Positions 19,341-19,368 of a DNA stretch of 64,000 nucleotides are shown piece by piece. The DNA comes from Escherichia coli (GTDB lineage: Bacteria > Pseudomonadota > Gammaproteobacteria > Enterobacterales > Enterobacteriaceae). The stretch lies in the NCBI RefSeq assembly GCF_050920415.1, contig NZ_CP169309.1; one strand, 5' to 3'. Both the position numbers and the translations under genes were made by a program. Position 1 is the stretch's first letter; the number at the start of each line of letters is the position of its first letter. The notes under the pieces were generated by a model that saw nothing but the letters and a program-made list of their open reading frames with translations, ran no database searches and was not told the DNA's origin.

Positions 19341-19368
19341 GTATGACGATTTTAAGTATTCGTCATAC
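19341..19368 (-). promoter_or_regulatory. NikR operator in the nikA promoter region
   Basis: Exact GTATGA-N16-TCATAC dyad 38-65 bp upstream of the nikA start codon. Confidence 0.75.

What the first reader, a model, noticed from the sequence alone, without database searches (positions are those of the whole stretch)
19341..19368. NikR operator dyad in the nikA promoter
An exact GTATGA-N16-TCATAC dyad lies in the 110-bp spacer between acpT and nikA. There is also an FNR-like half-site (TTGAT) further upstream on the nikA strand.
Basis: partly seen in the sequence, partly recalled or inferred. Interest (0 to 1): 0.25.

Follow-up and report, generated by a model that had tools for sequence, protein, structure and literature searches.

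The report
Known NikR operator at nikA promoter
This is the well-studied site in E. coli where the nickel-sensing repressor NikR sits on the promoter of the nickel-uptake operon nikABCDE; it is real, conserved and already fully described, so it is ordinary.

Summary
GTATGACGATTTTAAGTATTCGTCATAC lies at window 19341-19368, in the 110-bp spacer between acpT and nikA, both on the minus strand. It is the only exact GTATGA-N16-TCATAC in the window, and no shuffle produced one. The window is E. coli chromosome, and the 28 bp are identical to K-12 MG1655, the sequence for which Ni-dependent NikR binding has been published. nikR itself lies at the end of the operon.

In 75 of 80 nikA loci from other species, a dyad with at most one mismatch sits just upstream of nikA. 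No such dyad occurs anywhere else in 893 kb of those loci.

Two more elements keep a fixed register with the operator:
- A -10 hexamer (TAAAAT, 19354-19349) lies inside the 16-bp spacer and is kept as TAnAAT in 69 of 75 loci.

This matches the published FNR site at -40.5 and ChIP peak. It puts the transcription start at about 19342, so the operator covers -26 to +2.

Mechanism: FNR activates a class II promoter under anaerobiosis, and Ni-NikR blocks RNA polymerase. Already known; low interest.

The parts
19341..19368 (-). NikR operator, GTATGA-N16-TCATAC. On the nikA strand it reads GTATGACGAATACTTAAAATCGTCATAC. Inferred to span -26 to +2 of the nikA promoter.
   Evidence: Exact and unique in the window, with 0 of 100 shuffles matching. 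Identical to K-12. The 40-nt stretch around it is 100% identical (over the 38-40 aligned bases) in 5267 of 5425 E. coli genomes. Conserved upstream of nikA in 75 of 80 loci. Published as the NikR operator.
19363..19368 (-). Promoter-distal half-site, GTATGA on the nikA strand.
   Evidence: Mean information 1.89 bits per position, but the sites were selected on these positions.
19341..19346 (-). Promoter-proximal half-site, TCATAC on the nikA strand. It contains the inferred transcription start (A at 19342).
   Evidence: The start is inferred from the FNR site centre at -40.5 and from the -10 hexamer spacing.
19349..19354 (-). -10 hexamer TAAAAT, inside the operator's 16-bp spacer (inferred positions -12 to -7).
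   Evidence: TAAAAT, TAGAAT, TACAAT or TATAAT sits at the same operator positions in 69 of 75 loci. Spacer information is 1.27 bits per position, against 0.19-0.46 in the flanks.
19376..19389 (-). FNR site TTGATccagAACAG (8 of 10 to TTGAT-N4-ATCAA), centre 19382.5, which is -40.5.
   Evidence: Best FNR-like match in the spacer. TTGAT is at offset -21 from the operator in 67 of 75 loci and almost nowhere else in the 60 nt upstream. Myers et al. 2013 report one FNR site at -40.5, a ChIP peak and FNR-dependent activation.
17729..19303 (-). nikA, the nickel ABC transporter substrate-binding protein; first gene of the regulated operon.
   Evidence: TIGR02294 nickel_nikA, E = 1.2e-252. RefSeq annotation of an identical strain.
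14388..17729 (-). nikB (16785-17729), nikC (15955-16788), nikD (15191-15955) and nikE (14388-15194).
   Evidence: RefSeq annotation of the 100%-identical strain NZ_CP169399.1, mapped onto the window. ORFs.
13982..14383 (-). nikR, the nickel-responsive ribbon-helix-helix repressor that binds the operator.
   Evidence: NF002815 and TIGR02793 NikR equivalogs. Full-length match to PDB chains 1q5v, 2hza, 2hzv and 3od2, E = 2.2e-85.
19414..20001 (-). acpT, the upstream co-directional neighbour. It is not part of the system and only bounds the spacer.
   Evidence: NF007676 AcpT, E = 2.9e-118. Annotation.

Best explanation
The dyad is the operator of the nickel-responsive repressor NikR in the nikABCDE promoter of E. 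coli. The promoter is a class II FNR-dependent promoter. It has an imperfect FNR site (TTGATccagAACAG) centred at -40.5, a poor -35 region, a good -10 hexamer (TAAAAT) and a start at about window 19342. The -10 hexamer lies inside the operator's 16-bp spacer, and the operator spans about -26 to +2. When cytoplasmic Ni(II) is sufficient, the NikR tetramer, encoded at the end of the same operon, binds nickel. Its two ribbon-helix-helix domains then dock on the two GTATGA half-sites two helical turns apart. This occludes the -10 region and the start site and shuts off nickel import. Under anaerobiosis with low nickel, FNR activates transcription to supply nickel for [NiFe] hydrogenases.

Shown here:
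- The sequence, its uniqueness in the window and its identity to K-12.
- The gene context and the presence of nikR.
- Cross-species conservation of the dyad, the -10 hexamer and the FNR half-site in a fixed register.

Taken from the literature: Ni-dependent NikR binding, the crystal complex, FNR ChIP and FNR-dependent activation.

Inferred: the exact start site, and steric occlusion as the mode of repression.
For: Exact dyad at 19341-19368, unique in the window, 0 of 100 shuffles matching. The locus is rbbA-yhhJ-nikR-nikEDCBA-acpT of E. coli. The NikR protein matches the crystallised E. coli NikR over residues 1-133. The operator is identical to K-12, and the 40-nt stretch around it is 100% identical (over the 38-40 aligned bases) in 5267 of 5425 complete E. 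coli genomes. In 80 nikA loci from genome contigs, 75 carry a dyad with at most 1 mismatch. Each is a short distance upstream of nikA (19-41 nt, apart from two loci with insertions), and there is no other such site in 892,902 nt, where about 2 are expected by chance. TAnAAT sits at operator positions 15-20 in 69 of 75 loci, and TTGAT at offset -21 in 67 of 75. Literature: Ni(II)-NikR binds GTATGA-N16-TCATAC in the nikABCDE promoter with nanomolar affinity (PMC7055735). NikR represses this single target through a well-defined palindrome (PMC3177205). The enterobacterial NikR consensus is GTATGAT-N13/14-ATCATAC (PMC545781). For nikABCDE there is an FNR ChIP peak, one site at -40.5 and direct activation (PMC3688515).
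Against: Nothing found here contradicts it. There are three limits. The transcription start is inferred rather than read from data: it follows from the published -40.5 combined with the only good FNR-like site in the spacer, and from the -10 spacing. The generic sigma-70 scan called no promoter, which is expected for an activator-dependent promoter with a poor -35 but is not positive evidence.
Confidence: 0.97

Rival explanations
1. On read-through RNA from acpT, the inverted repeat acts as a hairpin that forms an intrinsic terminator for acpT. This role could be instead of, or in addition to, the protein operator.
For: On the nikA/acpT strand the RNA folds into a 10-bp stem with a 10-nt loop, dG -12.1 kcal/mol, z = -3.8 against shuffles. 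It is followed by UUAUUUCC and starts 45 nt after the acpT stop. The six positions after the dyad are T-rich in the cross-species consensus.
Against: Any palindromic operator folds as a hairpin, so the fold is not independent evidence. The terminator scan did not call it, probably because the loop is 10 nt and so exceeds the scan's 3-8 nt limit. There is no Rfam match. The half-sites are conserved as sequence (GTATGA/TCATAC), not only as pairing. The T-rich tail is as frequent where the largest upstream ORF is divergent (mean 4.56 T of 8, 16 loci) as where it is co-directional (4.17, 54 loci); this is a rough heuristic. The dyad follows nikA across genera with different upstream neighbours.
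Confidence: 0.08
2. The dyad is a chance palindrome with no function, or the site of a regulator other than NikR.
For: None beyond the fact that binding was not measured here. Three matches with 2 mismatches elsewhere in the window are at chance level.
Against: 0 of 100 shuffles gave an exact match. The dyad is conserved in 75 of 80 nikA loci and absent elsewhere in 893 kb. It co-occurs with nikR: in the same operon in most Enterobacterales, and as a 49-52% identical nikR homologue upstream of nikA (opposite strand in four of five) in the distant non-enteric loci. NikR footprints and a co-crystal structure are published for the identical sequence.
Confidence: 0.01

Closest known systems
E. coli K-12 nikABCDE operator of NikR (Chivers & Sauer 2000, 2002; NikR-operator crystal structure 2HZV, Schreiter et al. 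2006)
   Same: The 28-bp sequence is identical on the nikA strand (GTATGACGAATACTTAAAATCGTCATAC). The acpT-nikA spacer, the operon and the NikR protein are the same.
   Different: Nothing within the operator. This strain differs from K-12 at four positions in the spacer upstream of the operator, all outside the operator and the FNR site. One of them lies between the two, at window 19373 (A in K-12, T here).
Enterobacterial NikR box consensus GTATGAT-N13/14-ATCATAC (Rodionov et al., PMC545781)
   Same: The cross-species consensus derived here, GTATGAtGAAT..tTAaAATCgTCATAC, agrees with it.
   Different: E. coli has C/G rather than T/A at the seventh position of each arm (GTATGAC...GTCATAC).
Class II FNR-activated promoters (FNR site TTGAT-N4-ATCAA centred near -41.5)
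   Same: The site TTGATccagAACAG is centred at -40.5. It keeps the promoter-distal TTGAT, and the C and A of the proximal half, across Enterobacterales. The -35 region is poor. ChIP occupancy and FNR-dependent activation are published.
   Different: The proximal half-site is degenerate (AACAG against ATCAA). The centre is 1 bp closer to the start than the canonical -41.5.
Helicobacter pylori and delta-proteobacterial NikR boxes
   Same: They share the regulator family and the architecture: two inverted half-sites about two helical turns apart.
   Different: The half-site sequences differ (for example GTGTTAC-N13/14-GTAACAC in delta-proteobacteria). H. pylori NikR is pleiotropic and can also activate.

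Membership tests
E. coli-type NikR operator | Two inverted 6-bp half-sites, GTATGA and TCATAC, separated by exactly 16 bp. | tested here: met
   Exact match at 19341-19368, unique in the window.
E. coli-type NikR operator | Located in the promoter of a nickel-uptake operon (nikABCDE), overlapping core promoter elements. | tested here: met
   It ends 37 bp upstream of the nikA ATG. A conserved TAnAAT lies inside the spacer. The overlap with the start site is inferred from the published FNR position at -40.5.
E. coli-type NikR operator | A cognate nikR gene (ribbon-helix-helix plus nickel-binding domain) is present. | tested here: met
   nikR is at 13982-14383 (-). It hits NikR equivalog models and matches the PDB NikR chains over their full length.
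E. coli-type NikR operator | Conserved at orthologous nikA promoters. | tested here: met
   75 of 80 loci carry a site with at most 1 mismatch upstream of nikA, and none occurs elsewhere in 892,902 nt.
E. coli-type NikR operator | Ni(II)-dependent, high-affinity binding by NikR, and nickel-dependent repression of nikA. | not testable with these tools
   Published for the identical K-12 sequence (PMC7055735 citing Chivers & Sauer 2000 and 2002 and Bloom & Zamble 2004). Sequence identity is shown.
Class II FNR-dependent promoter | Match to TTGAT-N4-ATCAA. | tested here: met
   TTGATCCAGAACAG matches 8 of 10 and is the best match in the spacer. It is not significant on its own, since 86 strand-wise hits (about 43 sites) of that quality occur in the window.
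Class II FNR-dependent promoter | Site centred near -41.5 relative to the transcription start. | tested here: inconclusive
The published position of -40.5 is consistent with the TAAAAT -10 hexamer at -12 to -7 if the start is 19342. The fixed register of TTGAT and TAnAAT across 67-69 of 75 loci supports this.
Class II FNR-dependent promoter | FNR occupancy in vivo and FNR-dependent anaerobic activation. | not testable with these tools
   Published: the ChIP-seq peak centre is 3,611,605 (U00096.2) and nikABCDE is in Category 1, direct activation. The peak maps about 85 bp upstream of the nikA ATG, inside the TTGAT. This uses the roughly 1,977-bp coordinate offset between U00096.2 and U00096.3, which I recall from memory.
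Intrinsic (Rho-independent) terminator | G+C-rich stem, short loop (3-8 nt), followed by a U-tract. | tested here: not met
   The terminator scan found none. The stem is 10 bp with only 4 G-C pairs, the loop is 10 nt and the tail is UUAUUUCC.

The most novel reading that the evidence does not exclude
The operator palindrome may have a second role on RNA. On read-through transcripts from acpT it could form a hairpin with a U-rich tail that insulates nikABCDE from upstream transcription, so that one sequence serves both as a DNA operator and as a weak terminator. A related curiosity is that ERIC-type repeats, one of which sits between the operator and nikA in another Escherichia lineage, end in a GTATGACGA word identical to the NikR half-site plus three bases. 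In principle this could create extra weak NikR half-sites.
Probability: 0.07. Interest if true: 0.25.

Novelty: already known. Interest (0 to 1): 0.05.

Why it matters
It does not change anything. It is the classic example of metal-dependent repression by a ribbon-helix-helix tetramer, and it links nickel import to anaerobic hydrogenase synthesis. Its value for the scan is as a positive control: the first-stage reader recognised a genuine, experimentally validated operator and its co-activator site from raw sequence. The cross-species data gathered here give a clean picture of the promoter. The FNR half-site, the -10 hexamer and both NikR half-sites are held in one rigid register across Enterobacterales. 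In the few alpha-proteobacterial loci recovered, a TTGAC -35-like word occurs where the enteric loci have the FNR site. This agrees with earlier comparative genomics.

Tried and rejected
- **Generic sigma-70 promoter and terminator scan of 19200-19520:** no calls. The promoter has a poor -35 region (AGGTTA), as expected for an FNR-dependent promoter, so the scan is uninformative.
- **Other NikR-like dyads in the window:** three matches with 2 mismatches (7330, 7493, 62563). They lie inside long ORFs and are close to what shuffles give (4 matches in all against a mean of 1.46; 5 of 100 shuffles reach 4). Rejected as chance.
- **Rfam search of the spacer at E <= 1:** nothing.
- **Primary papers:** I tried to read Chivers & Sauer, Schreiter 2006 (PMC1564233), Rowe 2005 (PMC1236639) and De Pina 1999 (PMC93426). 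None is held. The biochemical claims are therefore cited through reviews and papers that quote them.
- **NarL repression reported by Rowe et al. 2005:** I did not look for a site. A 2009 paper notes that no NarL site had been identified at nikA.
- **Terminator reading:** considered and given low weight.

Full report
**Observation.** Window 19341-19368 reads GTATGACGATTTTAAGTATTCGTCATAC, an exact GTATGA-N16-TCATAC dyad. It is the only exact match in the 64-kb window, and none of 100 dinucleotide-preserving shuffles contained one. With two mismatches allowed there are three more hits (7330, 7493, 62563). All three lie inside long ORFs, and the total of four is close to what shuffles give. The arms are exact over 10 bp (AGTATGACGA / TCGTCATACT) and 92% complementary over 13 nt. 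The flanking ORFs are 17729-19303 (-) and 19414-20001 (-), which leaves a 110-bp spacer as stated.

**Identity of the locus.** The 221 bp around the dyad occur in 5425 of 5426 complete E. coli genomes and are 100% identical to strain MFDS1022581. The annotation of that strain gives rbbA, yhhJ, nikR, nikE, nikD, nikC, nikB, nikA, acpT, yhhT, yhhS, dcrB, yhhQ, tusA and zntA. NCBIfam equivalog models confirm three of the proteins:
- NikA: TIGR02294, E = 1.2e-252.
- AcpT: NF007676, E = 2.9e-118.
- NikR: NF002815 and TIGR02793.

The 133-aa NikR matches the crystallised E. coli NikR chains (1q5v, 2hza, 2hzv, 3od2) over its full length.

**Comparison within E. coli.** On the nikA strand the operator is GTATGACGAATACTTAAAATCGTCATAC, identical to K-12 MG1655 (NC_000913.3, nikA ATG at 3,613,667). 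A 40-nt query centred on the operator is 100% identical, over the 38-40 bases that align, in 5267 of 5425 genomes. The 221-bp region as a whole is at least 99% identical in only 15 genomes. The variation therefore falls outside the operator. In a seven-strain alignment all substitutions but one lie outside the 28 bp and outside the FNR site. The exception is a single A-to-G change in the operator spacer of one isolate.

**Comparison across species.** A scan of genome contigs with NikA returned 80 loci. They include Escherichia, Citrobacter, Klebsiella, Raoultella, Kosakonia, Enterobacter, Edwardsiella, Atlantibacter and others, plus a few alpha-proteobacteria, Halomonas, Desulfovibrio and Firmicutes.
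- In 75 loci a GTATGA-N16-TCATAC with at most one mismatch lies upstream of nikA, typically 19-41 nt from the estimated start.
- In the whole 892,902 nt of these loci there is no other site of that quality, although about 2 are expected by chance.
- The five loci without a site are the most distant ones (Stappia, Desulfovibrio, Paenibacillus, Domibacillus) and Samsonia, which has 2 mismatches.

The half-site conservation is partly a product of how the sites were selected. The absence of any background site is not affected by that selection.

**Promoter anatomy.** I anchored the 75 loci on the operator without gaps. The spacer carries 1.27 bits per position, against 0.19-0.46 bits in the flanks. 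Two conserved elements stand out:
- A -10-like hexamer at operator positions 15-20: TAAAAT in 52 loci, TAGAAT in 10, TACAAT in 5 and TATAAT in 2.
- TTGAT exactly 21 nt upstream of the operator in 67 of 75 loci. It appears only five times at any other offset in the 60 nt upstream.

In the window these elements are TAAAAT at 19354-19349 and TTGATccagAACAG at 19389-19376, both on the nikA strand. The latter is the best match to the FNR consensus TTGAT-N4-ATCAA in the spacer, at 8 of 10. That match is not significant by itself, because 86 strand-wise hits of that quality, about 43 sites, occur in the window.

Myers et al. 2013 list nikABCDE among operons directly activated by FNR. They report one FNR site at -40.5 and a ChIP-seq peak centre at 3,611,605 in U00096.2. 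With the site centre at window 19382.5, a position of -40.5 puts the transcription start at the A of window 19342. The TAAAAT hexamer then falls at -12 to -7 and the operator at -26 to +2. The -35 region (AGGTTA) is poor. This explains why the generic sigma-70 scan found nothing and fits an activator-dependent promoter. The ChIP peak maps about 85 bp upstream of the ATG, inside the TTGAT. That mapping relies on the roughly 1,977-bp coordinate offset between U00096.2 and U00096.3, which I recall from memory. The start site is an inference, since I could not read start-site data.

**Mechanism.** The published work, as quoted in papers I could read, states that Ni(II)-NikR binds GTATGA-N16-TCATAC in the nikABCDE promoter with nanomolar affinity (PMC7055735). 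E. coli NikR represses this single target through a well-defined palindrome (PMC3177205). The enterobacterial consensus is GTATGAT-N13/14-ATCATAC (PMC545781). NikR is a tetramer with a central nickel-binding domain and two peripheral ribbon-helix-helix domains, and nickel binding switches it to a DNA-binding conformation (PMC11672702). Combined with the anatomy above, the most likely mechanism is steric exclusion of RNA polymerase from the -10 region and the start site when nickel is sufficient. This acts on top of FNR-dependent anaerobic activation. The primary papers were not available in the library.

**Rival readings.** On RNA of the nikA/acpT strand the palindrome folds into a 10-bp stem with a 10-nt loop (dG -12.1 kcal/mol, z = -3.8), followed by UUAUUUCC. 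It could in principle terminate acpT read-through. Several points count against this:
- Any palindromic operator folds as a hairpin.
- The terminator scan did not call it, and Rfam has no match.
- The half-sites are conserved as sequence, not merely as pairing.
- The T-rich tail is equally common where the upstream ORF appears divergent (a rough heuristic).

I give this at most a minor, additional role. A chance palindrome is excluded by the shuffles and the conservation.

**Verdict.** This is the well-characterised NikR operator of E. coli nikABCDE together with its FNR site. It is already known and of low interest, apart from serving as a positive control for the scan.

Noticed in passing
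L010 4866-4980 (Escherichia sp. MOD1-EC7003): An insertion of about 112 nt lies between the NikR operator and the nikA start codon. It looks like an ERIC/IRU repeat (…GAATCCCCAGGCGCTTACTAAAGTAAGTGACTGAGGTG…); I recognised this from memory and did not test it. Its 3' end reads GAAGTATGACGAGTATA, which carries the word GTATGACGA, identical to a NikR half-site plus three bases. The insertion lengthens the nikA leader but leaves the operator and promoter intact.
   Followed up: partly
L009 4530-4960 (Escherichia sp. E1V33): An insertion of about 430 nt lies immediately after the intact operator. It contains 3.1 tandem copies of an 81-nt unit (4643-4894) rich in CCCTCTCCC/GGGAGAGGG palindromes. A degenerate second copy of the operator's right arm (AATCGTCGCCATACTTATTT) follows the insert, possibly a target duplication. 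The effect on nikA expression is unknown.
   Followed up: partly
L072, L074, L075, L076, L079 (Consotaella, a Proteobacteria MAG, Rhizobium, Fulvimarina): These distant nikA loci keep the GTATGA-N16-TCATAC dyad. However, they have a TTGAC (-35-like) word where Enterobacterales have the FNR TTGAT. In four of the five (L074, L075, L076, L079) the nikR homologue (51-52% identity) lies upstream on the opposite strand rather than at the end of the operon; no nikR was found in the L072 locus. This suggests NikR control without FNR dependence.
   Followed up: no
window 19373 (also 19405, 19411, 19413): This strain differs from K-12 MG1655 at four positions of the acpT-nikA spacer. One lies between the FNR site and the operator (A in K-12, T here, in the poor -35 region). 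Two other sampled strains (NRZ105019 and UID2309220033) share the T at that position.
   Followed up: partly
window 7330-7357, 7493-7520, 62563-62590: Three GTATGA-N16-TCATAC matches with 2 mismatches lie inside long ORFs (7062-8684 + and 62042-63475 +). They are at chance frequency and are not considered sites.
   Followed up: yes
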